Source: a virus
Taxonomy: Duplodnaviria; Caudoviricetes
IMG/VR virus record: IMGVR_UViG_3300050821_001373
Coordinates: 1,472 to 65,471 of that record
DNA: 64,000 bases
Strand: one strand, 5' to 3'
Part shown: piece by piece, positions 7,041-58,117 of the stretch
How positions within the stretch are numbered: the first letter of the stretch is position 1
Layout: the number at the start of each line of letters is the position of its first letter
Notes under the pieces: generated by a model
Told to the model about the DNA's origin: nothing
The model's input: only the letters and a program-made list of their open reading frames with translations
Database searches by the model: none
Translations under genes and position numbers: made by a program

Positions 7041-7499
7041 CTAACCCGCATCGCTGAGATAGAAGCCGCCACCCAGCGGGTACGGCGTGATCTGGACCCA
7101 AGCATAGTTCGTGGTGAGCACAAGCTGCGAGAGCCCGTCCACCAGTTCGCCACTCGTGAAGGTGATCGTGATGTTGTTCGTCCCGGCGTCGCCTTTGATG
7201 TCCTTGATCAGGATTGGCACGCCGCCGTAGCTAGATGCCAGATTCAACTTGATGCCGGTCGGGGCGCCGACGGCCTTGTTGACCAGCACCTTGCCGATTC
7301 CAGCGGGGACCAGATACGGCGAGCCAACCGTAGCGCCGGTCGTGATGATGACCGAGGCCCCTGTGCCGGCCGGGTTGATGAAGCTGGCGATCACGGACAG
7401 CGGCACCCGCTTGGTCGTGCCGCCCTGCACAATGACGAACTCGTCATCACCGGTCAGGCCGAGCGCGAGAGGCAAGCTGCTGATCGGTATGTTACTCAT
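7041..7499 (-). CDS. virion-associated hypothetical protein
   Basis: N-term IPISSLP...VIVQGGTTKRV fibre-anchor-like motif; IKDIKGDAGTNNITI gp34-like repeat. Confidence 0.65.
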   Translation of the reverse strand: MSNIPISSLPLALGLTGDDEFVIVQGGTTKRVPLSVIASFINPAGTGASVIITTGATVGSPYLVPAGIGKVLVNKAVGAPTGIKLNLASSYGGVPILIKDIKGDAGTNNITITFTSGELVDGLSQLVLTTNYAWVQITPYPLGGGFYLSDAG

Positions 7500-15446: not shown

Positions 15447-15463
15447 CATGAAGGCAAGTCCCC

Positions 15464-43880: not shown

Positions 43881-44395
43881 CCTTGGATATATCAGCACTG
43901 CTTCATAAGCTCCGCACAGCCCCACAGCGCCAAGGCACGTTCGGCCGCGGCGATCCCAAGCCTCTCGACGAATACCGGGTGGTGCTGACCGCGGAGGAGC
44001 GGGACTGGCTGGCGGGCGTTGCCGAGGAGCATTGCACGTCGGCGGCAATCCGATCCAAGGCCGACGTGGTGGTCAATCTGGGGCGATCAGTAGAGGATTA
44101 TCCCGTCAGGAGACAAATCATGAGAGATACCAAACTTCCACCGGTGCCGTGGATTCGTGGCGAAGACAATAAAGTTGAGTTCCTGATCTGCGCGAATGGC
44201 AAAGGCAATCAAGAGGCGCATGCTCGCGCTAATTCTGCAGAGGTGGCGAACTTCATCGTAGACGCCTGTAACGCCTATGACAGGCTCGTAGCAGAGCTCG
44301 AGGAGTGGAAACAGGCCGCCTCCGTAGAGGCTGGACTGCGCCGTGAAGCTCATGCCGAGATCGACCGTCTCAAGCGAACATCGGGAGAGGGATGA
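43877..44395 (+). CDS. hypothetical (Ead/Ea22-like) protein
   Basis: PW...ANFIVDACN...AEIDRL. Confidence 0.55.
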   Translation: MTLDISALLHKLRTAPQRQGTFGRGDPKPLDEYRVVLTAEERDWLAGVAEEHCTSAAIRSKADVVVNLGRSVEDYPVRRQIMRDTKLPPVPWIRGEDNKVEFLICANGKGNQEAHARANSAEVANFIVDACNAYDRLVAELEEWKQAASVEAGLRREAHAEIDRLKRTSGEG

Positions 44396-44540
44396 TGATG
44401 AGGGGTCTCCGATGGTATCTCACACTGCGGCCGGCCAGCGCGATTTTTATATCGAAGCTCATGACGATGCATAGCTACGAAAAGCAATTCGGTGCTGAGG
44501 AAATGCGTAGGGCGCGGGCATGGTGCAAGGAAGTATATCG

Positions 44541-44957
44541 ATGATGGACGAGATGAAAGAGAAGATCGCGCGGGCGATCACCGGGCCCACCCAGTACGAT
44601 GATCTAAAGCGGATGGGAAAGCACGCCAGTTGTCTGTTATCAGCCCAAGCCGCCCTCACCGCGATAGAGGCCGCTGGCTATGTCGTGGTGCCGAAAGAGC
44701 CGACAGAAGCGATGGTTGACGCTGGGCTGTCAGAAGATGGCGGCGGCCACGATGATCCATGCAATAGGTCAATCCAAGCCTCTGCTTACAAAGCCATGAT
44801 CGAAGCAGCAAAGGCCCAGCCCGTTGGCTCACGCCAGATCGAACCTCATCTTGTCGGTGGCGGCATCAACCTCGACCACTACGCCACCCTCGCCGACTCT
44901 GCCGCCTCCTTCGATCCTGAGAAGCAGTTCGAGAAGGACAGGGAGGAGGGAAAATGA
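44541..44957 (+). CDS. hypothetical protein
   Basis: GYVVVPKEPTEAM...YKAMIEAA common phage motif. Confidence 0.6.
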   Translation: MMDEMKEKIARAITGPTQYDDLKRMGKHASCLLSAQAALTAIEAAGYVVVPKEPTEAMVDAGLSEDGGGHDDPCNRSIQASAYKAMIEAAKAQPVGSRQIEPHLVGGGINLDHYATLADSAASFDPEKQFEKDREEGK

Positions 44958-44972
44958 GCGCTACCATGCCGC

Positions 44973-47033
44973 TTAAGGATGCGTCGGCTCCGCCGGTTGC
45001 GTCGTGATGTAGGCCGAGAATGCATTCTGCGTCGTCGAGATCTGCATGTTGGTCTGACGCAGTATGGTGGTGCCGGGATTGGACCACGGGAAACCCTGAT
45101 ATAGCCCCGCCTTCAGATAGGCCCCGGTGTCGTTGTCCCAGAGAGCAGAGGGGCCTTTCGAGCAGATCAACGGCAGCGTCGAGCCGCGTGGCCCTGCGTT
45201 GATGGTGATCGTGTCGGTGGTGTGGTTCGTCGACCAGAACCCCTCGATTTCCACCGCATAGGTCGTGCCGACCGTCAGGGTAAACGGAGAGCCGCAATTG
45301 GTCGTGACCGGATTGCCCCCGCTCTCGCAACATTGCGTCTGGAACTGAATCTGCCCATTCAGGCACGAGAACGTGACAAGGTCGGGCGTGCCCGGACTGC
45401 CGGCGCCGTCGTTGTAGTGGACCTGGCCGCCGTAGCACCAGTCTCCGTTATGTGTCTGATATTGCTCGAAATTGAACGTGTAATAGATCGAAAAATGCTG
45501 GCCGGGCGTAAACACCAGAGCATTATCGATCTCGGACCGCTCCTGGATCGTGATATTTGCGTCGCTGTCGCCGGGCTGGACGATGAATCGCCACATCGTG
45601 GCGGTGTTATTGATGTTGGTCGCGCGCGCTATCGAGGGCCAGACATAGCCGCCTGATTGCGGGTGCCACGACTGCCCGAGCACGTCCGGGCCATAAGTGT
45701 TCTGGCCATAGGCATTGTTCGGCCCAGTGTAGGCATTCGGCACGTAGCTGCCAGCCATCGTGAAGCCGTCCGACGTGTTCGGTGCGAACGGGAACGTGTT
45801 GCCACCCTGACCCTGCAGGAAGGTCGCCATCGCCACGCGGCTGGCCTGCGTCGACGGATAGAGCACCATCGTCTCAAAGCACGAATTGCTGGCGCTCTCC
45901 GAGCCCGAGGCGTTCGCGAACAGCGTCATGCCCACGTTGGTCGAATAGGTGATGTTGCCACCGGTCGCGATGGTACCCAGGCTCACCGCGTCATAGTTCA
46001 ACTGGGTGGTCGAGGTGTCGTAATCCCAGACAGCCATCTGGCTGCGCATGCCGTTGTCAATCCGGAACTGTCCGAAGACCGGGGACCCGTTGCGCGCCGC
46101 GTTGAAATCGCTGGCCTGGTTCGAGCTCGCCGATGCCGCGCCGACGCCCCAATAGGCCACGCTGTCGAACTGCGCGCCGGCCGGGCCGTTCATGATCCAG
46201 ACGCCGCCGCCGACCGAATTGGTGATGGTTAGGGTGTCGCCGGTCTGCGTGCCGGTCGGCCCGATATTGCCGGGCGCGAACGCCATCGTGCCCGTGGTGC
46301 CGGTCGGCAGCGTGTTCAGGTAGGACTGACCGGTGCCCGAGGTGGCCGAGGCGTGCGGGATGAAACCAGCACTGTCATAGATGCCGGGGCTGGTGCCGAG
46401 TTGCGTCTGGTTGTTCGCCGTCGAGAGACCGACCTGCGAGGCCATGGAGGCGATATTGGCCGAACCGTTCGTGATGTTGCCGGTCGTGACCCATGTCGGC
46501 AGGTTCGCCTGGCTCCATTTATAATCCAGCGTGTGCAGGTTCGCGACCATGAACAGGTGCTGCTGCGCGGTGTTGACGGTCGAGCTAAACGTCGTCGTCA
46601 TCTTCGAACCCGGCTGCGGACAAACCGCGAGCAGGGAGTTCTCGTCGACAATCACCCGCGCCTTATGCCCAGCCGTAGAGGCATCCGATGCGTTGATGCC
46701 GTTGACCTGATCGACCCAGGTGTTCAGGTAGCAATAGGTGCTGGCACAGAACGTGTTGAAGCTGGCGACGTCGACCTTGCCGTTCGAGAGGAAGCCGATC
46801 GCCTGCGTCGCGCTGTCGCTCTGCCGCTGGACCGTCCCCCAACTGCCGGCATAACTGGAATTGAGCTTGTAGGCCGAAACGCCCCACGTCGCCCCGGTGT
46901 AGGTGTTGAGCAGCCCGGAGAATGACCCACCACCCCCGCCTCCGCCGTTTACCGCAGCCTGAAAGAACGCGGCATTGACCGGCAAAGCAGCGATGATCGC
47001 TGTCAGGAGGCCGGCGAAAAGGATACGCTTCAT
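44973..47033 (-). CDS. signal-peptide protein with ConA/LamG-like domain and C-terminal polysaccharide-lyase-like domain
   Basis: MKRILFAGLLTAIIAALPVNA|; SAYKLNSSYAG...QRQSDSATQAIGF; ERSEI...GQVH...YLKAGLY; 10 Cys. Confidence 0.75.
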   Translation of the reverse strand: MKRILFAGLLTAIIAALPVNAAFFQAAVNGGGGGGGSFSGLLNTYTGATWGVSAYKLNSSYAGSWGTVQRQSDSATQAIGFLSNGKVDVASFNTFCASTYCYLNTWVDQVNGINASDASTAGHKARVIVDENSLLAVCPQPGSKMTTTFSSTVNTAQQHLFMVANLHTLDYKWSQANLPTWVTTGNITNGSANIASMASQVGLSTANNQTQLGTSPGIYDSAGFIPHASATSGTGQSYLNTLPTGTTGTMAFAPGNIGPTGTQTGDTLTITNSVGGGVWIMNGPAGAQFDSVAYWGVGAASASSNQASDFNAARNGSPVFGQFRIDNGMRSQMAVWDYDTSTTQLNYDAVSLGTIATGGNITYSTNVGMTLFANASGSESASNSCFETMVLYPSTQASRVAMATFLQGQGGNTFPFAPNTSDGFTMAGSYVPNAYTGPNNAYGQNTYGPDVLGQSWHPQSGGYVWPSIARATNINNTATMWRFIVQPGDSDANITIQERSEIDNALVFTPGQHFSIYYTFNFEQYQTHNGDWCYGGQVHYNDGAGSPGTPDLVTFSCLNGQIQFQTQCCESGGNPVTTNCGSPFTLTVGTTYAVEIEGFWSTNHTTDTITINAGPRGSTLPLICSKGPSALWDNDTGAYLKAGLYQGFPWSNPGTTILRQTNMQISTTQNAFSAYITTQPAEPTHP

Positions 47034-48145
47034 GGGAACACCGTCGGATTTACCGTATGAACGAATGCGTAGATTCGGTTGAACACGCGAAGCTGGCCAG
47101 CAGAGCCCAACGAACCGCCGACAGCCACGGCGAACACCGGTTCAAGGTATGTCGATCCGGAGCCAGCGCACTGCCAGCCTTGAGCCGTGGTGTTGTTCGG
47201 CGCTGAGGGAGTTCCGGTGGCCGAGCCATTGGTTGCACCGTTATAATAATTGGTAAGGGTGGTGCCACTGAGATCACCCGCAAATAGGCCGGAAGCCGTG
47301 CCGGCGGTGCCGGTAGCGAAGCCAACGCCGTTAATCGCACCGCCCATGCCGCCGCCGAACGAAAACACCTGCATGTTGATATCAAACGAAGGCGCCGCCT
47401 CGCCGATCGGGCAGTTGTTATCGGCCGTTGCACCACCCAGCGTGCCGGCCATCAGCATGGCGCTCGACGTCTTGTAATTGGTCGCCGTCGAGTAATTCAG
47501 GCCGGTGTTGAGCGTGGCGTTACCGGTGGGGGTATAGCTCGTGTTGGTCGTGAACGTCGCGGTGCCGGTGATCGTGGCGCTGGTGGCCGTGATGATGTCC
47601 TTGAGCGCCGCGGCCGTGCTGTCGGTGGCGTGGATATACAGCCGGTCCAGCTTGGCGAAGTCGCCATCAGTGACCATACCGCAGATCATCGTCTGATAGG
47701 CAGTGGTGTAGGCCGTGGTAATACCAGACAGGAACGCGGCAGACTCCGTACAACCGCTGCCACTCGCCGCGATCGTCAGCGTGAACGCCGATCCGCAGTT
47801 AGCCACTGTGGTTGTACTGTCAGTGACCTTGACTTGAATGCTGGGGAACGTTCCGGAGACGGATGGGGTGCCTGAAATGATGCCGGTCGAGGAGCTGATT
47901 GAAAGCCCGGTCGGTAGCGACCCGGTCTCCGAGAACGTGTAAGCTGGCGTTCCGCCCGAGGCGCTGGGCGTCGCGCCGGTGTAGAGAGTGCCCTGCGTTC
48001 CCGAGGTGACTGGCGTATAGGAACAGGACAGCGCTCCGCTTGAGATCTTGGTCGGGTTGCTCCAGCCATCAAGAGAGCCGTTCCAGCCAGCGTGCGCACC
48101 GATGCAGGTGAACGATAGCAGGCCAGCGATTAGCAGTTTTTTCAT
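47030..48145 (-). CDS. signal-peptide protein with He_PIG (putative Ig) domain
   Basis: MKKLLIAGLLSFTCIGAHA|; ASGGTPAYTFS..GSLPTGLSISSSTGIISGTP; 6 mature Cys. Confidence 0.75.
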   Translation of the reverse strand: MKKLLIAGLLSFTCIGAHAGWNGSLDGWSNPTKISSGALSCSYTPVTSGTQGTLYTGATPSASGGTPAYTFSETGSLPTGLSISSSTGIISGTPSVSGTFPSIQVKVTDSTTTVANCGSAFTLTIAASGSGCTESAAFLSGITTAYTTAYQTMICGMVTDGDFAKLDRLYIHATDSTAAALKDIITATSATITGTATFTTNTSYTPTGNATLNTGLNYSTATNYKTSSAMLMAGTLGGATADNNCPIGEAAPSFDINMQVFSFGGGMGGAINGVGFATGTAGTASGLFAGDLSGTTLTNYYNGATNGSATGTPSAPNNTTAQGWQCAGSGSTYLEPVFAVAVGGSLGSAGQLRVFNRIYAFVHTVNPTVFP

Positions 48146-48729
48146 TGAGTCTGTACCAGCGCGGTCCCGTTCCAGAAATATTCGCTCTTTGCACCTGACA
48201 GAATAGGCAAGTTGATGCCTGTTCCAGTGACAGTGAGTAGGATAGTGCCAAGAAGCGACGGCGGCCCGATAACCTTGAGTTGATATCCGGGGTAGAGATT
48301 CGTTGTAGACACCGACATCGTCAACGTGTTCCCGATGAGGACAGTGCCGGTTAGTTGCCAGATCGGCGCACTCACCAGCGGTGTCACGTTGATAGTGCCG
48401 GACGTGGCCGAGCTAGTGGTAGGGACACCCAACGAGAAGTGCTGCCAAGCGTTGGCGATGCACTTGGCATTATTGGCCCCGCCGCCCAGGTCGGTGACAT
48501 AGGCTACCGAGCCGTAGGGAGTGGTAGTACCGTTGCATGTCGGAAGGGTGGCAACGGTGAATGAACCGACGAAATTTCCTGGAGTAACGCTGCATGTGGT
48601 CGTGCAGCCGTTGACCGAGCTAACACCACCCCCGCCTCCACCCCAATCGGCCTTGGCTACAATGAAGGGAGTACCAAAAACAGCGCCAGATAGAACTGCT
48701 ATCAGCGGCCAGTTGTGCGGCTTTACCAC
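48142..48729 (-). CDS. signal-peptide fibre/decoration-like protein
   Basis: Hydrophobic leader ending AKA|DW then poly-Gly; FTVATLPT...AYVTD motif; 4 Cys. Confidence 0.65.
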   Translation of the reverse strand: MVKPHNWPLIAVLSGAVFGTPFIVAKADWGGGGGGVSSVNGCTTTCSVTPGNFVGSFTVATLPTCNGTTTPYGSVAYVTDLGGGANNAKCIANAWQHFSLGVPTTSSATSGTINVTPLVSAPIWQLTGTVLIGNTLTMSVSTTNLYPGYQLKVIGPPSLLGTILLTVTGTGINLPILSGAKSEYFWNGTALVQTQ

Positions 48730-48755
48730 GATAACCCCCGTTGTTCAGGGTGCTA

Positions 48756-50696
48756 CTAAAACCAGGTACATGACCACTTATGTCCAGTTGTAGCAGCAAC
48801 CACAGATAGTGCCGTGTTCATACCAAATCCTTGAGGAGTGGTAAAGGAACCCGGTGAAGCAAAGGTTGTGGCAGTCGCAGCTTGCAGGGGATACGATGCC
48901 GCAGTGTTGGCGGCAGCGGTGGTGGTGAACGAAATCCACAGCGGCTCCGTCGTATCAATGTTGACGATTGTAAAGCCGTGCAGCGTGGTCTGGGCGGTAA
49001 AGGCGTTCTGCGCCGTGCCGCCCGTGGTGATCGTACCGGAGCAGTTGGTCGGGGTGACGTTGGATGGGCCCGCCTGCTGCACAACAATCTGACGTCCGGA
49101 CGTGTCCGTCGAGATCGAGCGCGCGTTGGTACCATCCGAGCCGGCTGTCAGGACGGGATTCCCCGATACCGCCGAGCCGGATGCAGCGTTGCCCTTGACG
49201 GCAACAGCAGCCTGATCCGATGCGATCACCACCGGGGATGAGTTGGCTGAGGTCGCCGAACCGTTCGCATTGGTGTTCTTGACGTTGACGAACAGAGAAC
49301 CGGTGTTGTCGCACTGCAAGACGCCGGCCTTGCCAGTGGTCAGCACCGCATAGCTGCTGATGAACAGACAGCCGGTCGGCGTGATGCTGGTGGTGCCCTG
49401 GGTGAACGCGGCTTGGTCGGCAAGCGCCGTACCGCCCGATCCAGCGCCAGCTTTGATGTTCACCAACAGGTTGCCGTTGGCGTCCATCTGGAGCGGCGAG
49501 ACGTTGCCCGAGGTGATCGTTGTCGGGGTCGTGTTGAATTGACCCAACGACAATTGGCCGTTGGTCGGGGTAGCGCCATTCTGGGTCGATGCGACAAGGC
49601 CCCATGCCGCAAGCGCAGACGGGACCACGGTTGCGTTGAGATTCGCCGCAGTGGCCTGTGCAGCCGTAACCGTTCCGGACACCGGCTGTGTCACGGCAGA
49701 CCCGTCAGTACGGAGTGCACCGGCCGTGGTCAGGCTGAGCGAGTTGGTCTGCGCCGTGGTATAGGTCGGGGCCGCGGTCGTGACGGCACCGAGCGCGAGA
49801 TTTCCGGTTTGCCCGGACGTGGTCGAGCCCAATGCCGCATTGGTTGGCTGGTTCGCCGAGGTCGCTGCGCCGGTCGGGAGCGGGAGGGCCGCAGCGGAAA
49901 TCGGGAAGGTCTGGCTGGTGCCGGGGCCGACAAACAGCGGGCTCGCCGCAGAGCCGATTTCCGTCCCGGCATTGTTGCGCAAATTGACGTGGCCTCCTCG
50001 CGCGCTCGTCATGCGCTGCATGGCCTGCGTGCCCGAGGTCAGCGTGGTAAGGCCGTCGTTGAACACACCGCCATAGGGTGCGAATACCGAGGCGCCCGCA
50101 GTGAATGCAGCCTGGTCCGTGCCGCTGGCGCCAGATCCACTGCAATTGGCGCAGTTGATGTATGCGAGGCCTCCCAAGACCTTCAGCATCGAGATCGTGC
50201 CGGCCGCCGTTCCGTCTACGGTGCCACCCACCAGAACAGGCGGGTTTGCCGCGGCGCTTCCGACCGCAGTCGGCCCGAATACTGCACCGCCGCCACCGCC
50301 ACCGCCTCCGCCACTTCCGGACCATGCAACCGGGCCATGACCCGATGCAAACGTGATACGGAGCGTCGTGGTGCCAGTCGCAGTAATCGCAGCGAGGTAG
50401 TTGCCGGGATTGAGCTGCAACGTGGTGCAGAACCCGCCGGAGAACGACATGCCATTGGTCGTTGCCGTCACAGTTGACGGGCCGATCGCAACGAAGGCTT
50501 CCACCGTGCCGATGTTGCAAACCAGAGCCTGAAGCGCGTTGTTCGCGTTCGTCGGGGCCGAGCTCGATGACGTCGCGCTGATCGTCGCCGTAGACGTCGC
50601 GGTGATCGGTCGGAAGCCGCCCGGGGTATCGGCATAGCTCGATACCGGGAAGAGGATGGAGATCGCCAGGGCGAGCGCGATACGGTGCTTGAGCAT
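48756..50696 (-). CDS. signal-peptide fibre/decoration-like protein
   Basis: MLKHRIALALAISILFPVSSYA|D; Thr/Ala-rich fibre repeats (DQAAFT x2, NPVL.AG.DGT x2); 8 Cys. Confidence 0.75.
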   Translation of the reverse strand: MLKHRIALALAISILFPVSSYADTPGGFRPITATSTATISATSSSSAPTNANNALQALVCNIGTVEAFVAIGPSTVTATTNGMSFSGGFCTTLQLNPGNYLAAITATGTTTLRITFASGHGPVAWSGSGGGGGGGGGAVFGPTAVGSAAANPPVLVGGTVDGTAAGTISMLKVLGGLAYINCANCSGSGASGTDQAAFTAGASVFAPYGGVFNDGLTTLTSGTQAMQRMTSARGGHVNLRNNAGTEIGSAASPLFVGPGTSQTFPISAAALPLPTGAATSANQPTNAALGSTTSGQTGNLALGAVTTAAPTYTTAQTNSLSLTTAGALRTDGSAVTQPVSGTVTAAQATAANLNATVVPSALAAWGLVASTQNGATPTNGQLSLGQFNTTPTTITSGNVSPLQMDANGNLLVNIKAGAGSGGTALADQAAFTQGTTSITPTGCLFISSYAVLTTGKAGVLQCDNTGSLFVNVKNTNANGSATSANSSPVVIASDQAAVAVKGNAASGSAVSGNPVLTAGSDGTNARSISTDTSGRQIVVQQAGPSNVTPTNCSGTITTGGTAQNAFTAQTTLHGFTIVNIDTTEPLWISFTTTAAANTAASYPLQAATATTFASPGSFTTPQGFGMNTALSVVAATTGHKWSCTWF

Positions 50697-50707
50697 GGAG
50701 CCTCTCT

Positions 50708-50732
50708 AAAAAGAAAGGCGCCCGGAGGCGCC
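50708..50732 (-). terminator. intrinsic terminator after capsid genes
   Basis: GGCGCC-TCCG-GGCGCC followed by TTTCTTTTT on the minus strand. Confidence 0.7.
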
Positions 50733-50745
50733 AATTTCTCCGGAC

Positions 50746-50943
50746 CTAGTCTTTGCCAAGATCCGGGTATTTTTCACGGACCTTGGCCCGGACTTTGGCC
50801 TTGAGTTCCGAGGTGCCGAACTCGCTCACTCTTCCCAGAGCGGCCTTCGCGTGAGATCGATCGTATACCGGATAAGACCTATCCGGTCCGGCGAAATCAC
50901 TGTCTGGCAGATCGTTCCGGGTTTCGGCGGTCAGCTTCGCCAT
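50746..50943 (-). CDS. conserved small phage protein
   Basis: MAKLT..RNDLPDSDFAGP.RSYP..DRSHA.AAL.R family. Confidence 0.7.
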   Translation of the reverse strand: MAKLTAETRNDLPDSDFAGPDRSYPVYDRSHAKAALGRVSEFGTSELKAKVRAKVREKYPDLGKD

Positions 50944-50944
50944 G

Positions 50945-51214
50945 TTACGGCTTTGCGGCTTCCGTGTTCTGGCCCGGCGACGCGGCCGAGCTGAACGGGG
51001 ACTTGTCCGAGCCTACACGTCCACCGCTGGCCCGGCGCGGCTTCTTGTCCATCCGAGCCTTGGGCTTGCCGCCCTCCGGCATCGCGACTTCCTTCTTGAC
51101 CGAGCCGCCCCGCTTCTTTTCCATGGCCTCTTTGACCACGTTCGAACCGGCACCGGAGTAGACTTCTCCACCCTTGGCCTTGCAGGACTTCATATGGCGC
51201 GCGCGTGACATCAA
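50945..51214 (-). CDS. small basic protein with repeated xxGGxV motifs
   Basis: KAKGGEV, KKRGGSV, RASGGRV. Confidence 0.65.
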   Translation of the reverse strand: MMSRARHMKSCKAKGGEVYSGAGSNVVKEAMEKKRGGSVKKEVAMPEGGKPKARMDKKPRRASGGRVGSDKSPFSSAASPGQNTEAAKP

Positions 51215-51227
51215 ATGACCTTTCAGG

Positions 51228-51944
51228 TTACATCGCGCTGGCGGCGCGGAGCGTGGAGGCGAGGATATAATCCGTGGTCATGGCGTTGATCGCAGCCGTG
51301 CCATTGCTGACAGCCATGGTGACGTTCAAAGCTGCGGTCGGAACGTTCGTGACTGGGAGCGAACCGACCAAGCTGTTGTTGAAGTATACAGCAACTGTGC
51401 CGCCAGTGTAGTGCATGCCAGCATTGACAAAGGTCGTATTCGCCAGCGTTCCGATATTGATCGTCGAGGTAGCAGACGCTTTTGTCACCTTCGCAGTAAG
51501 CGTGGTGCTCGCCGCCGACTTCTGTATGTAGAAGCCATTCGTGATAGCACTGAACGGCGTCGCATCTGCGATCAGGCCGATTACAAACGCGGCATTCGTA
51601 GCGTTCGTAAGCTGGAAGCGAGTCTTGATCCAGCAGTCCTGGTTCGGCGTGATAATAAACGACGTTGCCCTGAGCTGCAGAATGTTCGAGTCGTTATTTG
51701 CCGCGGTCGTGTTCTGGATTAACTGACCGCCGTCGCCACCGGCAACGAGCGCGGAGGTTCCGCCGCCCGTTCCAGTCGCAACCCAAGTGGCAGCACCAGC
51801 CGCACCAACGATGTACGAATCGAAGTCATCGAAGAATGTGTGCATCAGCGACGGGTCAGGCGCTACATACTGCGACGTAACCGTGCCGACGCTGGCGTTG
51901 TTCACCCCATTGGGGTAGCTTGTAGCCGAGTAACCGTTGGGCAT
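51228..51944 (-). CDS. capsid-associated/decoration protein
   Basis: Directly after MCP; HTFFDDFD, beta-rich ConA-like; AGGAG RBS. Confidence 0.6.
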   Translation of the reverse strand: MPNGYSATSYPNGVNNASVGTVTSQYVAPDPSLMHTFFDDFDSYIVGAAGAATWVATGTGGGTSALVAGGDGGQLIQNTTAANNDSNILQLRATSFIITPNQDCWIKTRFQLTNATNAAFVIGLIADATPFSAITNGFYIQKSAASTTLTAKVTKASATSTINIGTLANTTFVNAGMHYTGGTVAVYFNNSLVGSLPVTNVPTAALNVTMAVSNGTAAINAMTTDYILASTLRAASAM

Positions 51945-51956
51945 GTACGGCTCCTA

Positions 51957-52871
51957 TTACGAGGTCGGGTTGGAGCCGTACAGCGCGCGGGGCTCATTAT
52001 ACGAGTAGCTATTACGCTCGTAGCCCTTGACGAGAAGGTTGTCGGTCGAGAACTCGACCGAGAGGTCCGACTCATACGGTACGCGGTTCATATAGACCAG
52101 ACCGTCCTGATTGGTCTGGAGGAACCACGAGAACTGCGACGTGAGATAGTTCCAGACGAGATAGCCGTCCGGGACGCCGCCCTGAGTGGACAGGATCGCG
52201 TTGACATCGTTGTTGCCGGTGCCGGGCCGCAGCTCGGTCTTGAGCAGGCGGATGGCAGTGGGCTCGAGTTGCGGCGGAATGATGAGCCGGCGCGGCTTGG
52301 CGTTCATGCGCTGGTTGGCGTTGTCGCGGAAGTTCGCGTTGATCGCCACCTGGGCATTGAGCAGCGAGGTCTCGTTCAGGGACGCCGCAGGAGATGCGAG
52401 GTTCGAGAACGTGCCGCTGTCCACCGGATGTGCCGTGGAAAGGAGTGCCTGACCGTCGCCGCCGATCGCGTTGTTGTAGACCGTGGCGCTGTTGAACACG
52501 TCGGCCGCAAACGCCTCATTGGTACGATAGAAGGCCTCGTTGAGGCCCATCACGGCCGGGCCAAACTCGGTCTTGTAGAGGTTGTCGTCGATGGCCTTCC
52601 GTGTAATCGCGAACAGGACAGCCAGCTCGTTGTGAGTCTGGTTGTACGTGTAGCGCTGACCGGAGGCGTTGTCCGCCTGGGTAGGCGCGCCTTCCTGCTT
52701 CACATAGGCCTGCGCCAGGTAGCGCATGCTGGTCGACTGTTCGAGCGCCATGTTCGACTTGCGCTCTTTGAAGATCTGCTTGCGGACGGCCGGGAGCTGA
52801 TCGTACTTTCCCGTAACGGACCAGAGGCCGGGGAGAAGCAGATTGCGGATTGAACTGAGAGCAATAGGCAT
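51957..52871 (-). CDS. major capsid protein
   Basis: LLLPGL, FAITRKAIDDNLY, GGDGQALLSTAHP, LNETSL, LIIPPQL, ERNSY..EPR motifs. Confidence 0.85.
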   Translation of the reverse strand: MPIALSSIRNLLLPGLWSVTGKYDQLPAVRKQIFKERKSNMALEQSTSMRYLAQAYVKQEGAPTQADNASGQRYTYNQTHNELAVLFAITRKAIDDNLYKTEFGPAVMGLNEAFYRTNEAFAADVFNSATVYNNAIGGDGQALLSTAHPVDSGTFSNLASPAASLNETSLLNAQVAINANFRDNANQRMNAKPRRLIIPPQLEPTAIRLLKTELRPGTGNNDVNAILSTQGGVPDGYLVWNYLTSQFSWFLQTNQDGLVYMNRVPYESDLSVEFSTDNLLVKGYERNSYSYNEPRALYGSNPTS

Positions 52872-52884
52872 TGATCAAATCCCC

Positions 52885-53478: not shown

Positions 53479-53569
53479 GCTAATAGCATCCTTTTGCGGA
53501 CCCTATTCCCGCGAGCCTCGCGGTTAGGGCGAAAAGGACGGCAGCGCGCCACCCAATGAATTTAGATGA

Positions 53570-53599
53570 TCGCTATCACACGGAATATGGTATTGTCAA
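53570..53599 (-). promoter_or_regulatory. candidate promoter of the capsid operon
   Basis: TTGACA-18 nt-(TG)n TAGCGA, intergenic. Confidence 0.45.
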
Positions 53600-55109: not shown

Positions 55110-55307
55110 CTATATCTTGCACTCCCGCTGGATCAGATAGATCTGGCGCAAGGTGATTCCATGCTCCATGGCCCACACGATCGAGGCGGCTCGGCCATGC
55201 TCAGCGACGAAACGCCGGATATCCTCGCAAGAATAGCCCGGAGGCAGCGACGTTGGCGCCACCAAGGCGAGCAGCACGACACCGGCCAGCATTAGGATAT
55301 CGCCCAT
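55110..55307 (-). CDS. small putatively exported protein
   Basis: Hydrophobic leader then SCEDIRRFV...REC; start uncertain. Confidence 0.5.
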   Translation of the reverse strand: MGDILMLAGVVLLALVAPTSLPPGYSCEDIRRFVAEHGRAASIVWAMEHGITLRQIYLIQRECKI

Positions 55308-55669
55308 ACGATATAGGCCACATCGACGCCGACAAGAGCAAGCCAAAGCCAATTGCCAAACCGGCTATACGACAGCACTGCGACGATCATAATGTGAGCG
55401 ATAGCAATAACTTGCTGCCCGATCGTCTTTCCGACAACAACCGCGTTGAACAGCCAAATCACGTAGCCGATAATCAGTCCGCCCGTGTCATGCAGCCACA
55501 TGCTGATCAGAAGTCCAAACACGAACCTCCGAACGTCTCCAGGAGCAATCGCGCTCGGGACTGGAAACCAGATCGCATACGCCCAATAGAAGAGGAGAAC
55601 AAACCATGTAGCCTGCTGATTGATAGTGCGAACGCTGTTCGAAAGCTCGAAAATGAAGTTAGCCATCAA
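55292..55669 (-). CDS. multi-pass membrane protein
   Basis: About four hydrophobic segments. Confidence 0.6.
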   Translation of the reverse strand: MMANFIFELSNSVRTINQQATWFVLLFYWAYAIWFPVPSAIAPGDVRRFVFGLLISMWLHDTGGLIIGYVIWLFNAVVVGKTIGQQVIAIAHIMIVAVLSYSRFGNWLWLALVGVDVAYIVWAIS

Positions 55670-55905
55670 TCACCATCCATCGCTCGGTAATTATTAAACA
55701 ATTCGAAAAATGCCGTGATCGGGTCCGGCGCGGATGTGTAGGGTTTCAGCACTCGATGAAGGTCGTCAGTGCTGCGGCTGACCTTGTCGGCCGTACCGCT
55801 CAGGCGGCGCGTTGCCTGCTCGAGACGAAGATTGGCTTGACGCACCTGGTGCATCGCTATCGCAGCGTTCATATCCCGAGCCTTTCGCCAGAGATACCGG
55901 AGCAT
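55666..55905 (-). CDS. hypothetical protein
   Basis: Coupled ORF in lysis region. Confidence 0.5.
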   Translation of the reverse strand: MLRYLWRKARDMNAAIAMHQVRQANLRLEQATRRLSGTADKVSRSTDDLHRVLKPYTSAPDPITAFFELFNNYRAMDGD

Positions 55906-55908
55906 TGG

Positions 55909-56202
55909 TCACTTCCGGGATGCGTGCGACGCGAACACGCTTTGGATCGCAACAACGAGGGCTTCAACTCTGCTGATCGACTTGTCGATCGCCACCACTG
56001 CATTCGTGACGTTGGCAAGGCCGCCGACCGATTCGCGTGTAAGGTCGACGATGGTTTTGTACTGAGCCTCAATTATTCGGTCCTTTTCCTTGCCATCCTG
56101 ACGTTGGAAAAACCACATCAGCAAGGCAAGAGCGGCTATACCTAGCGGGCTGCCCGTCAAGATAACATTGACGAGCTTATCGATCGGGAACCCATCCACC
56201 AT
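55909..56202 (-). CDS. single-TM coiled-coil protein (holin or inner-membrane spanin candidate)
   Basis: TM LGIAALALLMWFF followed by coiled coil. Confidence 0.55.
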   Translation of the reverse strand: MVDGFPIDKLVNVILTGSPLGIAALALLMWFFQRQDGKEKDRIIEAQYKTIVDLTRESVGGLANVTNAVVAIDKSISRVEALVVAIQSVFASHASRK

Positions 56203-56242
56203 CGTCTATTGTTCCCGTCAAGTCCACTGCTTCACATTTGGA

Positions 56243-56530
56243 TTACGACGCAGCGTCCTGTGCCTTCGCCGCCGCCAGCGCTGCCGTGAACTCGGCATCG
56301 TATTGGGCCGACATGGCGTCGAGAGCGTCCCATTGAGAATCTGTGATGTCGTCACTTTCCTGCAAGGCGCTGATGATGTTTTGAACGATTGGCAAAAGGT
56401 CACGATATTCAGCAATCAGGACAGGCACGAGTGCCGTCAGGATCGAGATGACCTGACCGATGATCTGCGTCGTGGCACCCGGCGCAAGCTGCTGCAGCAG
56501 CGCGAGAAGCGGAGTGATGATGGCCTGCAT
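56243..56530 (-). CDS. hypothetical amphipathic protein
   Basis: Abuts the lipoprotein gene. Confidence 0.6.
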   Translation of the reverse strand: MQAIITPLLALLQQLAPGATTQIIGQVISILTALVPVLIAEYRDLLPIVQNIISALQESDDITDSQWDALDAMSAQYDAEFTAALAAAKAQDAAS

Positions 56531-56938
56531 TTACTTGCTCCCGATTCCATAGATGTTCATGATGTTCTGCAGCGATTCCGTTGCGGCGACGAGGGTGTTG
56601 TAGAGCCCGGCATCGGCGAGCGTGCCCGGATTCGCCTTCATGAAGCCTCGGAGATCGTTACGAGCCTTGATGCCGGCATTGAACGGTGCATCCAGAGCCT
56701 CGGCTGCGCCCTTGACGCGGCAGAGATTGCCGACTCCAGTGCACATCGGCAGCTTGAGATAGTTCGTTGCAGACCGCTCCGCGGCATTGAACACGTTGAT
56801 GGCGATATAGGCCGTCTTGCTCTTGACCTTGACGTCGCCAGCGACCTCGATCGCCTGACCGATTTTCTGGAAGGTGGTGCACGCTGGCAGCGAGGCAAGA
56901 CTGGCCGCGAGCGCGATAGAAAGGATGATTTTCCGCAC
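56531..56938 (-). CDS. lipoprotein (outer-membrane spanin candidate)
   Basis: MRKIILSIALAASLASLPA|C lipobox-like; AAGGAG RBS. Confidence 0.65.
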   Translation of the reverse strand: MRKIILSIALAASLASLPACTTFQKIGQAIEVAGDVKVKSKTAYIAINVFNAAERSATNYLKLPMCTGVGNLCRVKGAAEALDAPFNAGIKARNDLRGFMKANPGTLADAGLYNTLVAATESLQNIMNIYGIGSK

Positions 56939-56949
56939 GAACTTGCTCC

Positions 56950-57309
56950 TTATGATGCCGTTTTCTGAGCTTCAAGTGCCGCCTGCGCCATGGCGGGATC
57001 GTTGATGGTGACAGTCGCCCTGCCCCCGGAAATGGCGTTCACGGTGGTTGACGGGCTCGCGCCGATCGCCGCAGCCTGGCTCGTCTTGCTAGACGACATG
57101 ATGCCGCGGATAGCGAGATAGAGCGGAGCAGCAGCGCCGACCAGAATCGAGATGTCGTTGATGACAGTGCCGCAAGCCGCGATCACAGCCTTGACCTGAT
57201 CGAGGGAGATGCCTTTGGCCTGAAGACCAAAGATAGAAATCGCGGTGCCGGCAATCGCGCCAGCATATCGGCCGGCGGTATTGATTTCGGCTTGGGTCGG
57301 AAGGCGCAT
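56950..57309 (-). CDS. holin-like membrane protein
   Basis: Two hydrophobic segments; downstream of endolysin; AGGA RBS before ATG 57309. Confidence 0.55.
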   Translation of the reverse strand: MRLPTQAEINTAGRYAGAIAGTAISIFGLQAKGISLDQVKAVIAACGTVINDISILVGAAAPLYLAIRGIMSSSKTSQAAAIGASPSTTVNAISGGRATVTINDPAMAQAALEAQKTAS

Positions 57310-57478
57310 TGACTTTGTTCCTATCGGTGAGCTTTGGATACCCGGATTATAGTCGATTTGATCATACCGGCGACGATGAGCACACACGCAACAGCAAGAG
57401 CCAACACCGACGTCCAGAACATGCAGATGAGAAGGGCCATGCAGGCTAGACAGGCGCCTGCCGCTATGCCGACGCCGA

Positions 57479-58117
57479 TCATGACGCCACCGGTACGGCC
57501 ACATTAGCCGCCTTCCAGCGCTTGAGCCATTCCTTGCGCTCGGGCAAACCGGTCAATCCACCATTGAGGGCCCTCGTAACCCCGCTGATGTCATCCTTCC
57601 TCGCATAAGGTAGACACCCACAGTTGACGAAATCGGACACTGCGCAGAGCAGGAAGGTTTCGGGGCGAATCAGGATGTCTGGATCCTTGATGACGTCGAG
57701 GCCGGTCTGTTTGGCAACGCGCTCATACCCCTCCCTGCCCGTCGTCTGCGAGCCGCCGCGGCCCCGGAAATTCCATCCGTCGTCCGAGCCCGTCTTGTTA
57801 CCCATGCGGCCGTTGTAGACCTTGTTCGCCAGCGCCTTGGGATTGTTGACGAAAGGCTGTGCACTGGCGACCGTCGGGAAGCGGCTCGGCCATACTGCGC
57901 GCAATCTTGCGTTCGAGTAATTCAAGTTCTCAATCATGTCATGGCCGGCTCCGCATTCGTGGCTGATCTGCGCCATGACGTGCGCGAGCACTAGCGGGCT
58001 GTCGATACCGTATTTTGCGAACACCGACGGCGCGCTGGCGGCGATACCGTCGCGGAGCCCCGGAACGCGTTCATCGCCGTTCGGCCAGAGATTATAAAGC
58101 GTGTTGATGAATGCCAT
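57479..58117 (-). CDS. endolysin, glycoside hydrolase family 19
   Basis: AQISHEC, ENLNYS, ANKVYNGRMGN, FRGRGGSQTTGR, TRALNGG. Confidence 0.9.
   Translation of the reverse strand: MAFINTLYNLWPNGDERVPGLRDGIAASAPSVFAKYGIDSPLVLAHVMAQISHECGAGHDMIENLNYSNARLRAVWPSRFPTVASAQPFVNNPKALANKVYNGRMGNKTGSDDGWNFRGRGGSQTTGREGYERVAKQTGLDVIKDPDILIRPETFLLCAVSDFVNCGCLPYARKDDISGVTRALNGGLTGLPERKEWLKRWKAANVAVPVAS

What the first reader, a model, noticed from the sequence alone, without database searches (positions are those of the whole stretch)
44973..50696. Cluster of four Sec-exported, even-cysteine fibre/decoration proteins in the capsid operon
Seen: four consecutive genes right after the capsid genes encode Thr/Ser/Gly-rich, beta-type fibre/Ig/ConA-like proteins. 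Each starts with an n-h-c signal peptide (MLKHRIALALAISILFPVSSYA|D, ...PFIVAKA|DW, MKKLLIAGLLSFTCIGAHA|GW, MKRILFAGLLTAIIAALPVNA|AF). Counted mature Cys are 8, 4, 6 and 10, all even and mostly in nearby pairs; the MCP has none. Established: tailed-phage virions assemble in the reducing cytoplasm and their fibres normally lack signal peptides, while even-Cys bias marks DsbA-oxidised exported proteins. Inference: this phage exports appendage proteins to the periplasm for disulfide folding and adds them to virions at or after lysis. Alternatively it displays or secretes them from the infected cell as adhesins or decoys. Either would be an unusual assembly route.
Basis: partly seen in the sequence, partly recalled or inferred. 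Interest (0 to 1): 0.92.

Follow-up and report, generated by a model that had tools for sequence, protein, structure and literature searches.

The report
Phage fibres and enzymes carrying export signals
A soil phage puts ordinary bacterial secretion signals and paired cysteines on four fibre-, adhesin- and sugar-cutting proteins and on its long tail fibre, so its host-recognition gear probably folds in the periplasm and meets the cytoplasm-built particle only at lysis.

Summary
Four consecutive minus-strand genes (44973-50696) of a complete 65.5-kb short-tailed phage start with Sec-type leaders ending in small-x-small sites. Mature Cys counts are 8, 4, 6 and 10; the capsid protein has none.

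A fifth protein outside the coordinates, a 954-aa tail fibre (4173-7037), has the same leader and 20 Cys.

The leaders look functional. Relatives keep a leader although its sequence drifts (P4 family 24 of 28, P3 family 4 of 4). In the mosaic fibre families, leader-bearing relatives have 5-6 times the Cys density of leaderless ones. Their Cys number is even in 63 of 66 and 93 of 99.

P4 is not a fibre. It is a two-domain enzyme, GH54-like plus a PL7/PL20-like lyase fold.

Joining of exported parts to virions is supported only for the fifth protein. A sister phage has one leaderless, Cys-free fibre where this phage has a 152-aa stub gene plus the exported fibre. The stub-fibre gene pair recurs in 12 of 12 loci. 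A complex model docks the fibre's first mature residues into the stub (0.84, best control 0.00).

For the four genes themselves, docking versus free action is open. A terminator-like hairpin separates them from the capsid genes. This scan noted the same phenomenon in at least 30 other genomes. I found no paper describing it.

The parts
48756..50696 (-). P1: 646-aa fibre-like protein. It has a Sec-type leader (predicted cut after residue 22), a small N-terminal beta domain, a Gly run, mosaic fibre repeats and a C-terminal knob. 8 mature Cys.
   Evidence: ORF; Cys. C-terminal match to phrog_22789. 1599 relatives, of which 66 of the 119 counted carry a leader. Atlas features are all viral.
48142..48729 (-). 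P2: 195-aa small protein with a leader (cut after residue 27). 4 mature Cys.
   Evidence: The Atlas lists only viral clusters of about 200 aa, some T4 gp9/10-N-like or Mtd_N-like; these are leads only. No relatives were found in viral contigs or in the loci held.
47030..48145 (-). P3: 371-aa protein with a leader, a He_PIG Ig domain and a C-terminal module of unknown fold. 6 mature Cys. Its start overlaps the stop of P2.
   Evidence: Pfam PF05345, E 1e-08, 35.9 bits against a cut-off of 24. 4 of 4 full-length or partial relatives carry leaders and even Cys numbers. The C-terminal module aligns with the C-terminus of the 1858-aa protein of L009. The AF2 model is poor.
44973..47033 (-). P4: 686-aa exported two-domain enzyme-like protein. 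The N-terminal domain has a GH54-like jelly roll and the C-terminal domain a PL7/PL20-like lyase jelly roll. 10 mature Cys. Its start overlaps the stop of P3.
   Evidence: AF2 pLDDT 80.1. Foldseek hits to GH54 arabinofuranosidase and to glucuronan and alginate lyases. Invariant R499, E501, Q537, H539, K641 and Y645, and 6 invariant Cys, in 24 sequences. Precomputed PF09206 and PF14099 on relatives.
50717..50732 (-). Terminator-like hairpin between the 65-aa gene and P1.
   Evidence: six G-C pairs, a loop of 4, then a T-rich tail. This is a pattern match only.
51957..52871 (-). Major capsid protein (context). 0 Cys.
   Evidence: PF25209 and phrog_371. tblastn finds annotated capsid proteins in 26 phage records. 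Cys.
50746..51944 (-). Three leaderless genes between MCP and P1: 238 aa (conserved behind the MCP in relatives), 89 aa and 65 aa (phrog_16160).
4173..7037 (-). F954: 954-aa long tail fibre with a Sec-type leader (cut after residue 21). It has 20 Cys in ten neighbouring pairs. Its shaft is homologous to leaderless fibres.
   Evidence: The syntenic place in L023 and G002 is shown.
7041..7499 (-). g152: 152-aa leaderless stub. Its first 45 residues are like the N-terminal anchor of one-piece fibres. Its C-terminal domain is the predicted socket for the mature N-terminus of F954.
   Evidence: 45% identity, E 5e-12. Family alignment A3. Gene pair in 12 of 12 loci. Complex model 0.84 against 0.00.
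55110..58117 (-). Lysis region (context): endolysin 57479-58117, a 135-aa lipoprotein 56531-56938, and small membrane proteins. This fits a host with two membranes.
   Evidence: phrog_181, E 1e-48. Lipobox and hydrophobic stretches read by eye.

Best explanation
The four genes are a late-expressed cargo cassette of Sec-exported, disulfide-bonded proteins that work on the host's surface sugars. P1 is a fibre-like adhesin. P2 is a small protein of the receptor-binding type. P3 is an Ig-domain protein. P4 is a glycan-cutting enzyme with a GH54-like and a PL7/PL20-like domain.

Proposed route:
1. Each protein is made with a cleavable leader and threaded through SecYEG. It is then cut by signal peptidase I, oxidised by the host Dsb system and folded in the periplasm. 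Meanwhile capsid and tail are built in the cytoplasm.
2. When holin, endolysin and the envelope-disrupting proteins open the cell, the two pools mix.
3. At least part of the exported set then plugs onto leaderless stubs already on the particle. This is modelled here for the long tail fibre F954 and its stub g152. The rest, most likely P3 and P4, leaves as free enzyme.

What is shown and what is inferred:
- Shown by sequence and comparison: the leaders, the Cys parity, the enzyme folds, the stub-fibre gene pair, and the synteny with a one-piece fibre.
- Inferred: actual export, cleavage, oxidation, and docking of any of the four genes.

My odds: export of the four 0.85-0.9; F954 docking on g152 about 0.6; at least one of P1-P4 joining the particle about 0.35-0.4. 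The confidence given for this explanation as a whole (exported set, of which at least part, F954 included, joins the particle) is 0.5.
For: (1) Leaders. The heuristic puts all four, and F954, among the 13 of 379 ORFs that score 4.8 or more.

(2) Leaders are kept in relatives without sequence conservation. P4 family: 24 of 28. The four misses are two N-truncated fragments, one lipoprotein-like leader and one protein with a long N-terminal extension. P3 family: 4 of 4.

(3) Cys statistics.
- P1 relatives: 66 with a leader have a median of 1.16 Cys per 100 aa, and 63 of 66 have an even number. 53 without a leader have 0.18, and 32 of 53 are even, 13 of them with none. One-sided Mann-Whitney p 2e-17.
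- F954 relatives: 99 with a leader have 1.27, and 93 of 99 are even. 19 without have 0.25, and 9 of 19 are even. p 3e-8.
- 78 IMG/VR loci: 43 leader-bearing against 20 other proteins after filtering, 1.16 against 0.32, p 1.4e-7.
- P4 family: 23 of 24 even.

(4) F954 is a real tail fibre. Its shaft is 49% identical over 480 columns to a leaderless fibre whose first 45 residues match g152. In sister phage L023 (same order of MCP, 238-aa gene, adaptor, Zn-finger gene, then g237-, g329- and g673-like genes), a single 673-aa leaderless fibre with 0 Cys sits where g152 plus F954 sit here.

(5) Stub and exported fibre are a conserved pair. A g152-like gene ends at the start of the fibre gene in 12 of 12 leader-bearing loci that had any g152-like hit. 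These include all 11 fibres of this N-terminal type whose 5' end is present. Three of the loci are near-identical.

(6) Complex model of 3 x g152 with 3 x F954 residues 22-170. Score 0.84, best of 3 controls 0.00. That mark was reached by 58 of 80 solved complexes and 2 of 110 mismatched pairs. The runs agree in at least 89% of contacts and the partner's pLDDT is at least 89. The contacts are F954 residues 22-29 and 42-47, the first residues after the predicted cut, with g152 residues 100-135 and 148-150. No solved sequence relative of either chain exists, so a pass from memory is unlikely.

(7) Position. In related phage G002 (MCP 53% identical), the slot behind the 65-aa gene holds two other, non-homologous leader-bearing proteins directly before the adaptor gene. 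L023, with its leaderless fibre, has none there.

(8) P4 fold and invariant residues.
Against: - No experiment and no SignalP run. The leader calls rest on my own heuristic.
- The Cys comparisons do not control for relatedness of the sequences.
- The complex job used my own alignments and 3+3 copies, unlike its calibration. A model score is not binding.
- No docking partner was found for P1-P4. P1 is the only gene shared with the three other phage loci that carry its modules.
- P4 has no anchor domain after its leader.
- The P3 C-terminal and P4 modules are fused in a secreted protein with a wall-binding-like and FN3-like architecture in L009. This shows they can work without a virion.
- A terminator-like hairpin precedes P1.
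- Phage Milano has extensive virion disulfides, and in the passages I searched nothing is said about export ('periplasm' and 'cytoplasm' each occur 0 times). Cys-rich virion parts therefore do not by themselves need a leader.
- P2 has no known relatives, so its leader could not be tested by comparison.
Confidence: 0.5

Rival explanations
1. None of the four joins the particle. They are exported helper proteins that act on their own. P4, perhaps held by P3, would cut the host's uronic-acid-containing capsule or exopolysaccharide. It would do so either in the periplasm on polymer in transit, or outside the cell after the burst. This would free progeny, destroy receptors on debris and open the matrix around neighbouring cells. 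P1 and P2 would bind the same glycans as free lectin-like proteins.
For: - P4 has enzyme folds and no anchor domain.
- Every P4 relative with an intact N-terminus is extracytoplasmic by its N-terminus.
- The P3 C-terminal and P4 modules are fused in a large secreted protein in L009.
- No partner was found, and P1 modules occur in phages that share no other gene with this one.
- A terminator-like hairpin lies upstream.
- The slot behind the 65-aa gene holds unrelated cargo in G002 and none in L023, as accessory genes do.
- A periplasmic lyase can reach capsule polymer in transit (PMC6003464, abstract read).
Against: - A 646-aa fibre makes little sense unless it is tethered to something, and free receptor-binding proteins would compete with progeny.
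- P1 shares repeats with leaderless fibres that have ordinary virion-type N-termini.
- The same phage uses the same leader-plus-Cys design on what is positionally its long tail fibre.
- The cassette sits where head or neck appendage genes sit in G002.
Confidence: 0.33
2. The N-terminal hydrophobic stretches are not working export signals. The proteins stay in the cytoplasm and assemble in the ordinary way. The Cys would oxidise in air after lysis, and the 'leaders' would be mis-called starts, membrane tethers or assembly handles.
For: - No experimental evidence of export exists.
- Phage Milano shows virion disulfides on proteins for which the passages I read say nothing about export.
- P3 and P4 have weak ribosome-binding sequences, although their starts overlap the upstream stops.
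Against: - All five leaders have a charged n-region, an uncharged hydrophobic core and a small-x-small site.
- The leader is kept across relatives at 46-76% identity while its own sequence is not conserved.
- Leader presence goes with a 5- to 6-fold higher Cys density and an even Cys number in 94-95% of cases.
- Leaderless relatives begin with other, non-hydrophobic N-termini instead.
- In the complex model the contact starts exactly at the predicted mature residue 22.
Confidence: 0.07
3. The cassette is a moron. In this reading the genes are surface adhesins or enzymes carried for the benefit of a lysogen (lysogenic conversion), expressed apart from the late genes.
For: - A terminator-like hairpin lies upstream.
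- The content of the slot varies between relatives.
- He_PIG Ig domains are typical of giant bacterial adhesins.
- Lambda lom and bor are known exported proteins encoded among late genes (own knowledge).
Against: - No integrase family turned up among the 29 different ORFs scanned against Pfam. Not every ORF was scanned.
- The record has direct terminal repeats and is rated complete.
- No promoter-like site was found on the minus strand between the hairpin and P1.
- The genes are co-oriented and tightly packed, and P2/P3 and P3/P4 overlap.
- A Sec leader alone gives no route to the surface of a cell with two membranes.
Confidence: 0.05

Closest known systems
Leaderless one-piece tail fibres of related short-tailed phages (the 673-aa fibre of locus L023; protein P0254)
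   Same: The shaft repeats are the same: 49% identity over 480 columns. The place in the tail module is the same. The N-terminal anchor motif is the same, but here it sits on g152.
   Different: Those fibres are a single polypeptide with no leader and 0-3 Cys. Here the fibre is split into a leaderless 152-aa stub and a leader-bearing distal part with 20 Cys.
T4 long tail fibre (gp34-gp37), built from several proteins joined end to end and attached to finished particles (own knowledge; review PMC3004832 seen only in a search listing)
   Same: A fibre made of separate proteins joined head to tail, which can be added after the rest of the particle is complete.
   Different: All T4 parts are cytoplasmic and use cytoplasmic chaperones. 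No T4 part carries a secretion signal.
Filamentous phage coat proteins pIII and pVIII (own knowledge; review PMC4823517 seen only in a search listing)
   Same: Virion proteins made with Sec leaders. pIII is disulfide-bonded in the periplasm.
   Different: Those phages assemble at the membrane and are extruded without lysis. Here the particle is a tailed, HK97-fold capsid phage with terminase, portal and a lysis cassette.
Virion-borne and soluble phage depolymerases (reviews PMC6966330 and PMC5380687, seen only in a search listing), and the periplasmic capsule lyase VexL (PMC6003464, abstract read)
   Same: P4 has lyase-type and glycosidase-type folds and would act on host surface polysaccharide. 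VexL shows that a periplasmic lyase can reach capsule polymer in transit.
   Different: As far as I know, phage depolymerases are beta-helix tailspikes or leaderless soluble forms. P4 is a jelly-roll pair with a Sec leader. VexL is a host enzyme.
Exported proteins encoded among late genes: lambda Lom and Bor, T5 Llp (own knowledge; T5 paper PMC9586334 seen only in a search listing)
   Same: Leader-bearing proteins encoded inside or beside virion gene clusters.
   Different: Those are small outer-membrane proteins or lipoproteins for exclusion or lysogen fitness. They are not 200-950-aa fibre- or enzyme-like proteins homologous to virion fibres.
Leader-bearing sortase substrates and outer-membrane proteins of huge phages (bioRxiv 10.64898/2026.10.24.761521, passages read)
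   Same: Phage-encoded proteins with signal peptides proposed to reach the cell envelope.
   Different: Those are proposed to be displayed on the host cell. They are not homologues of tail fibres, and no virion docking is proposed.
Disulfide network of Agrobacterium phage Milano (PMC10811340, passages read)
   Same: A phage of a soil alphaproteobacterium whose outer virion parts, including receptor-binding proteins, are disulfide-linked.
   Different: The passages I read say nothing about export. How those disulfides form is not addressed there.

Membership tests
Sec-type (signal peptidase I) signal peptide | Basic n-region, uncharged hydrophobic core of about 8-18 residues, and small residues at -3 and -1 | tested here: met
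   My own heuristic. P1, P2, P3, P4 and F954 score 5.49, 6.63, 6.08, 7.02 and 5.57. Only 13 of 379 ORFs reach 4.8 or more. SignalP was not available.
Sec-type (signal peptidase I) signal peptide | No lipobox Cys at +1 and no twin-arginine motif | tested here: met
   Read. The residues after the predicted cuts are D, D, G, A and Q. None of the five has RR in its n-region. By contrast, ORF 56531-56938 has a Cys at +1 and ORF 53797-54075 has an RR motif.
Sec-type (signal peptidase I) signal peptide | Leader kept in homologues | tested here: met
   P4 family 24 of 28; P3 family 4 of 4. P1 relatives 66 of 119; F954 relatives 99 of 118 counted. P2 could not be tested because no relatives were found.
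Sec-type (signal peptidase I) signal peptide | Actual translocation and cleavage | not testable with these tools
   This needs reporter fusions, fractionation or N-terminal mass spectrometry.
Disulfide-bonded extracytoplasmic protein | Even number of Cys in the mature chain, and enrichment over cytoplasmic relatives | tested here: met
   This phage: 8, 4, 6, 10 and 20. Relatives: 63 of 66, 93 of 99 and 23 of 24 even. Density is 5-6 times that of leaderless relatives.
Polysaccharide lyase of the PL7/PL20 jelly-roll type (P4 C-terminal domain) | Beta-jelly-roll fold like solved lyases | tested here: met
   Foldseek: 2zzj (glucuronan lyase) E 2.1e-7, TM by target 0.61; 2z42 (PL7 alginate lyase) E 1e-6, TM 0.54. 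The model has pLDDT 80.1.
Polysaccharide lyase of the PL7/PL20 jelly-roll type (P4 C-terminal domain) | Catalytic Arg, Gln-x-His and Tyr signature (recalled from memory) | tested here: inconclusive
   R499, Q537, H539 and Y645 are invariant in 24 sequences. I did not superpose them on a solved active site.
Polysaccharide lyase of the PL7/PL20 jelly-roll type (P4 C-terminal domain) | Match to the curated family profile | tested here: not met
   P4 itself has no Pfam family at E up to 0.1. PF14099 is on record for one fragmentary relative only.
GH54 alpha-L-arabinofuranosidase catalytic domain (P4 N-terminal domain) | Fold likeness and profile match | tested here: inconclusive
   Foldseek 6sxt_A: E 7e-10, but TM by target only 0.35. 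PF09206 is on record for 3 of 28 relatives, not for P4. Catalytic residues were not examined.
He_PIG Ig-like domain (P3, residues 44-115) | Pfam PF05345 above the gathering score | tested here: met
   E 1e-08, 35.9 bits against a cut-off of 24. The library search is dominated by this domain in giant repeat proteins.
Conventional phage tail fibre | Shaft homologous to known fibres, and the gene placed in the tail module | tested here: met
   Met for F954 only. P1 shares repeats with fibre-like proteins but lies outside the tail module.
Conventional phage tail fibre | N-terminal virion-anchor domain on the same polypeptide | tested here: not met
   In P1-P4 and F954 the N-terminus is a leader. 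The anchor motif is on the separate g152.
Conventional phage tail fibre | Presence in purified particles | not testable with these tools
   This is an uncultured phage. No RNA or proteome data exist (no RNA holder listed).
Moron or lysogenic-conversion gene | Temperate phage, own promoter and terminator | tested here: not met
   No integrase family among the 29 different ORFs scanned against Pfam. No minus-strand promoter-like site before P1. The record has direct terminal repeats. Not all ORFs were scanned.

The most novel reading that the evidence does not exclude
A large group of soil tailed phages builds its particles in two compartments. Capsid, tail and short leaderless stubs are made in the cytoplasm. 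The distal fibres and glycan enzymes are sent through Sec (some relatives use Tat), oxidised by the host Dsb system in the periplasm, and snapped onto the stubs by a plug-and-socket joint only when lysis merges the compartments. The newly cut N-terminus of the fibre would be the plug. The four genes of this finding would be further cargo of that route, as head or neck appendages.
Probability: 0.4. Interest if true: 0.9.

Novelty: new variant of a known kind. Interest (0 to 1): 0.8.

Why it matters
Textbook assembly of tailed phages is wholly cytoplasmic. If host-recognition parts are routinely matured in the periplasm, several things follow.
- Host Sec, signal peptidase and Dsb functions become infection factors for these phages.
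- Fibres of such phages cannot be produced or engineered in the usual cytoplasmic way.
- Gene callers and structural-protein predictors that discard leader-bearing proteins as 'not virion' will miss the receptor-binding proteins of many soil phages.
- The stub-and-plug joint would be a natural, swappable connector for host-range modules.

Even on the lesser reading (free exported enzymes), a lytic phage that sends a glycan lyase and adhesins through Sec before lysis is an unusual way to prepare the envelope or matrix for release.

The data also give a simple test for other genomes: leader plus even Cys against leaderless and Cys-poor within one fibre family.

Tried and rejected
- P3 structure: the AF2 model from a 5-row alignment has pLDDT 41.7. 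It is too poor for a fold search, and none was made.
- The library search with P3 was swamped by the Ig repeat. Only four full-length or partial relatives were usable.
- P4 and its family alignment found nothing in viral contigs. P2 found nothing there either.
- Both genome-contig scans (P1, F954) confirmed no relative, so no host could be read from prophages.
- megablast of 44000-54000 against GenBank phages: no match.
- tblastn against the same collection: P1 hit only a 13% stretch of one uncultured record. F954 hit short stretches of two jumbo phages (three records). I read the N-terminus of the Achromobacter phage Motura fibre, and it has no leader.
- Stop-codon read-through joining g152 to F954: the two are in frame, separated by TAG and one codon. 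In L016 the same pair overlaps out of frame, so I dropped this idea.
- A shared N-terminal domain between P1 and leaderless relatives such as P0117: only the repeats align.
- Sequence search of solved structures for MCP, the scaffold-like protein, P1, P2, F954 and the g152 family: nothing, apart from one chance-level hit.
- RNA evidence: no RNA holder listed.
- Earlier notes on this same genome, and by likeness to F954: none.
- Eight literature searches found no paper describing Sec-exported tail fibres of tailed phages. The library lacks most subscription journals, and supplements were closed, so virion proteome tables that might show processed N-termini could not be seen.
- Disulfide geometry in the P4 model could not be checked because no coordinates were in reach.

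Full report
WHAT THE WINDOW IS

The window is bases 1472-65471 of a 65,471-bp virus record with direct terminal repeats, rated 100% complete. A 97-base exact repeat is seen. It is a short-tailed phage. The main genes:
- large terminase 15464-17104 and portal 11050-13668;
- a coiled-coil scaffold-like protein 9139-10098;
- two SU10-type adaptor-fold proteins and a tail-collar fibre;
- ejection proteins and an endolysin;
- RecT, a helicase and methylases in the early regions.

The HK97-fold capsid protein is 51957-52871. By tblastn it matches annotated capsid proteins of 26 phage records. These include an uncultured freshwater phage (55%) and phages of Pelagibacter, Roseobacter and Caulobacter (31-39%).

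In relatives the capsid genes follow portal and scaffold directly. Here they form a separate block behind the lysis and regulator region.

THE OBSERVATION

My n-h-c/AXA heuristic ranks them 1st, 2nd, 4th and 10th among 379 mechanical ORFs. Only 13 ORFs reach the threshold I used later.

Two qualifications:
- Three leaderless genes and a terminator-like hairpin (50732-50717) lie between the capsid gene and P1.
- P2/P3 and P3/P4 overlap by four bases, so these genes look translationally coupled.

One extension: the 954-aa protein in the tail module (4173-7037, 'F954') has the same kind of leader. Its 20 Cys lie as ten neighbouring pairs.

ARE THE LEADERS REAL EXPORT SIGNALS?

No signal-peptide predictor was on hand, so I used comparison.

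P4 family: 28 proteins at 45-100% identity, several on contigs of 38-65 kb. 24 pass the heuristic. The other four are two N-truncated fragments, one protein with a lipoprotein-like leader and one with a long N-terminal extension. The leaders themselves are not conserved in sequence. This is how signal peptides behave.

P3 family: 4 of 4 relatives have leaders.

P1 and F954 belong to large mosaic fibre families: 1599 and 1249 hits among the 8000 candidates scored in each search, with the best 120 of each listed. These families contain both leader-bearing and leaderless members, which gives a natural control.

| Family | Group | n | Median Cys per 100 aa | Even Cys number |
|---|---|---|---|---|
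| P1 relatives | with leader | 66 | 1.16 | 63 of 66 |
| P1 relatives | without leader | 53 | 0.18 | 32 of 53 (13 with none) |
| F954 relatives | with leader | 99 | 1.27 | 93 of 99 |
| F954 relatives | without leader | 19 | 0.25 | 9 of 19 |

One fragment in the P1 set and two in the F954 set, which did not start with M and had no leader, were left out.

An independent sample of 78 IMG/VR loci gave 48 leader-bearing proteins, 2 anchor-type and 28 other. I then dropped three ORFs open at the 5' end, duplicates and proteins under 300 aa. That left 43 against 20, with 1.16 against 0.32 Cys per 100 aa and p 1.4e-7.

These tests do not correct for shared ancestry. The link between leader, high Cys density and even Cys number is nevertheless what export into an oxidising periplasm predicts. 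A decorative hydrophobic N-terminus would not predict it.

The lysis region has an endolysin, a lipoprotein and small membrane proteins. This fits a host with two membranes, so a Sec leader means the periplasm. One F954 relative is named from Bradyrhizobium oligotrophicum, a weak host hint. The only public run that holds the stretch is labelled soil metagenome and may be the source.

WHAT THE FOUR PROTEINS ARE

- P4. The model is good (pLDDT 80.1) and shows two jelly rolls. The first resembles the GH54 arabinofuranosidase catalytic domain. The second resembles PL20 and PL7 glucuronan and alginate lyases and heparinase I. An Arg, a Gln-x-His and a Tyr are invariant in the family, as are six Cys. 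Their match to the PL7 catalytic signature is recalled, not superposed. P4 itself reaches no Pfam threshold.
- P3. It has a He_PIG Ig domain and a C-terminal module of unknown fold (poor model).
- P3 and P4 together. On a 75.6-kb metagenome contig (L009), one 1858-aa protein carries a hydrophobic leader-like start, a peptidoglycan-binding-like stretch and FN3-like repeats (these three read by eye). It also carries the whole P4 module (57% identity) and ends in the P3 C-terminal module. P3 and P4 therefore probably work together, and they can do so without a virion.
- P1. It is fibre-like, with a small N-terminal beta domain, a Gly run, repeats shared with many phage fibres and a C-terminal knob.
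- P2. It resembles only small viral proteins (leads only).

DO EXPORTED PARTS JOIN THE PARTICLE?

(a) Its shaft is 49% identical to that of leaderless fibres. The first 45 residues of those fibres match instead the 152-aa leaderless protein g152, encoded directly upstream.

(b) Sister phage L023 has the same order of capsid gene, 238-aa gene, adaptor, Zn-finger gene, and then g237-, g329- and g673-like genes. At the place of g152 plus F954 it has a single 673-aa fibre with the anchor fused on, no leader and no Cys. Related phage G002 (capsid protein 53% identical) has the split, leader-bearing form, as here.

(c) A g152-like gene abuts the fibre gene in 12 of 12 leader-bearing loci that show any g152-like hit. 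This includes all 11 fibres of this N-terminal type whose 5' end is present. Three of the loci are near-identical. The other 36 leader-bearing loci, with other N-termini, have no such gene. In the two leaderless fibres that match, the hit is the fibre's own N-terminus.

(d) A model of three g152 chains with three F954 chains (residues 22-170) scored 0.84, 0.84 and 0.87.
- The best of 3 controls scored 0.00.
- The mark was reached by 58 of 80 solved complexes and 2 of 110 mismatched pairs.
- The runs agree in at least 89% of their contacts, and the partner's pLDDT is at least 89.
- The job differs from the calibration because it used my own alignments and 3+3 copies.
- The contact is between F954 residues 22-29 and 42-47, which begin at the predicted mature N-terminus, and the C-terminal domain of g152.
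- Neither chain has a solved sequence relative.

Together these results say that F954 is the distal part of the phage's long tail fibre and that g152 is its stub on the particle. Since g152 has no leader, the two can meet only when the inner membrane is breached. This is inference. The model supports binding but does not show it.

THE FOUR GENES THEMSELVES

The evidence is weaker here.

In favour of docking:
- They use the same leader-plus-Cys design as F954.
- In G002 the slot behind the 65-aa gene, directly before the adaptor gene, also holds leader-bearing proteins, though unrelated ones. L023, with its leaderless fibre, has none there.
- P1 is a fibre, which makes sense only if it is tethered.

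Against docking:
- No partner was found.
- P1 is the only gene shared with the three other phage loci that carry its modules.
- P4 has no anchor domain.
- The L009 fusion shows a virion-free use of the P3 and P4 modules.
- A terminator-like hairpin precedes the cassette.

I therefore give about 0.35-0.4 that at least one of the four ends up on the particle. I rate 'free exported helpers' nearly as high. A periplasmic lyase can reach capsule polymer in transit (PMC6003464, abstract).

COMPARISON WITH WHAT IS KNOWN

The closest things known:
- leaderless fibres of related phages;
- multi-protein fibres added after particle assembly, as in T4;
- Sec-dependent coat proteins of filamentous phages;
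- soluble or virion-borne depolymerases;
- small exported proteins encoded among late genes;
- leader-bearing envelope proteins of huge phages (preprint passages);
- the disulfide-linked virion of phage Milano (passages).

None of these combines a tailed-phage fibre with a cleavable Sec leader. Eight full-text searches found no such description. The library misses most subscription journals, and supplements were closed.

Within this scan the phenomenon is not new. One search lists 31 earlier notes in at least 30 other genomes, mostly soil phages of Bradyrhizobium-type or Acidobacteria-type hosts. They read it the same way and all leave virion joining untested. One of them (e1-5344288) also describes a short leaderless fibre stub.

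This report adds four things:
- the within-family Cys-parity contrast;
- the one-piece against split fibre synteny;
- the conserved stub-fibre pair with a controlled docking model;
- the enzyme reading of P4.

VERDICT

- Observation: confirmed.
- Export and oxidative folding: very probable.
- Virion joining: probable for the tail fibre, open for the four genes.
- Class: a new variant of a known kind, namely phage fibres and glycan enzymes with a secretion route.
- Interest: high, because the route is directly testable and would change how the assembly of many soil phages is understood.

Noticed in passing
window 53797-54075 (+): A 92-aa ORF with a twin-arginine-type leader: an RR motif, a hydrophobic core and a small-x-small site. 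It lies between the capsid block and the regulator genes and scored 3rd of 379 ORFs in the leader heuristic. Whether it is a real gene is unknown. In locus L006 a 674-aa protein next to the P1 relative also starts with a Tat-like motif.
   Followed up: no
window 56531-56938 (-): A 135-aa lipoprotein (lipobox with Cys at +1) lies in the lysis region. As far as I recall it is much longer than usual outer-membrane spanins. It could be an exclusion lipoprotein instead.
   Followed up: no
window 7037-7043 (-): g152 and F954 are in the same frame, separated only by TAG and one codon. Read-through seems unlikely, because the homologous pair in L016 overlaps out of frame.
   Followed up: partly
window 44973-53478 compared with 236-17104: The capsid block (197-aa gene, MCP, 238-aa gene and so on) lies some 40 kb away from portal and scaffold, behind the lysis cassette and regulators. 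In G002, L023 and GenBank relatives the capsid genes are contiguous with the portal and scaffold or with the adaptor and tail genes.
   Followed up: partly
L009 7943-13519 (+): A 1858-aa secreted protein on a 75.6-kb metagenome contig fuses several parts: a peptidoglycan-binding-like stretch and FN3-like repeats (read by eye), the whole P4 module, and the P3 C-terminal module. A partial P4 relative is named from a Paceibacterota MAG.
   Followed up: partly
L039 and L040 (fibre ORFs starting at 4436 and 5626): In two viral loci a Sec-type leader is followed directly by an anchor-like motif of the kind that starts leaderless fibres. In some phages, therefore, even the anchor part appears to be exported.
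   Followed up: no
L005 6008-12564 and L006 6778-11664: Two unrelated phage types carry runs of three or four leader-bearing fibre- or enzyme-like genes just behind their head genes, including P1 relatives.
   Followed up: partly
window 10076-10498 (-): A GroES-like (Cpn10) 140-aa protein is encoded between portal and scaffold (phrog_3188 E 2e-06; Pfam below cut-off). A 'co-chaperonin groeS' gene is annotated in MW202675.1, two genes after a 2697-base gene labelled 'type I restriction enzyme'.
   Followed up: no
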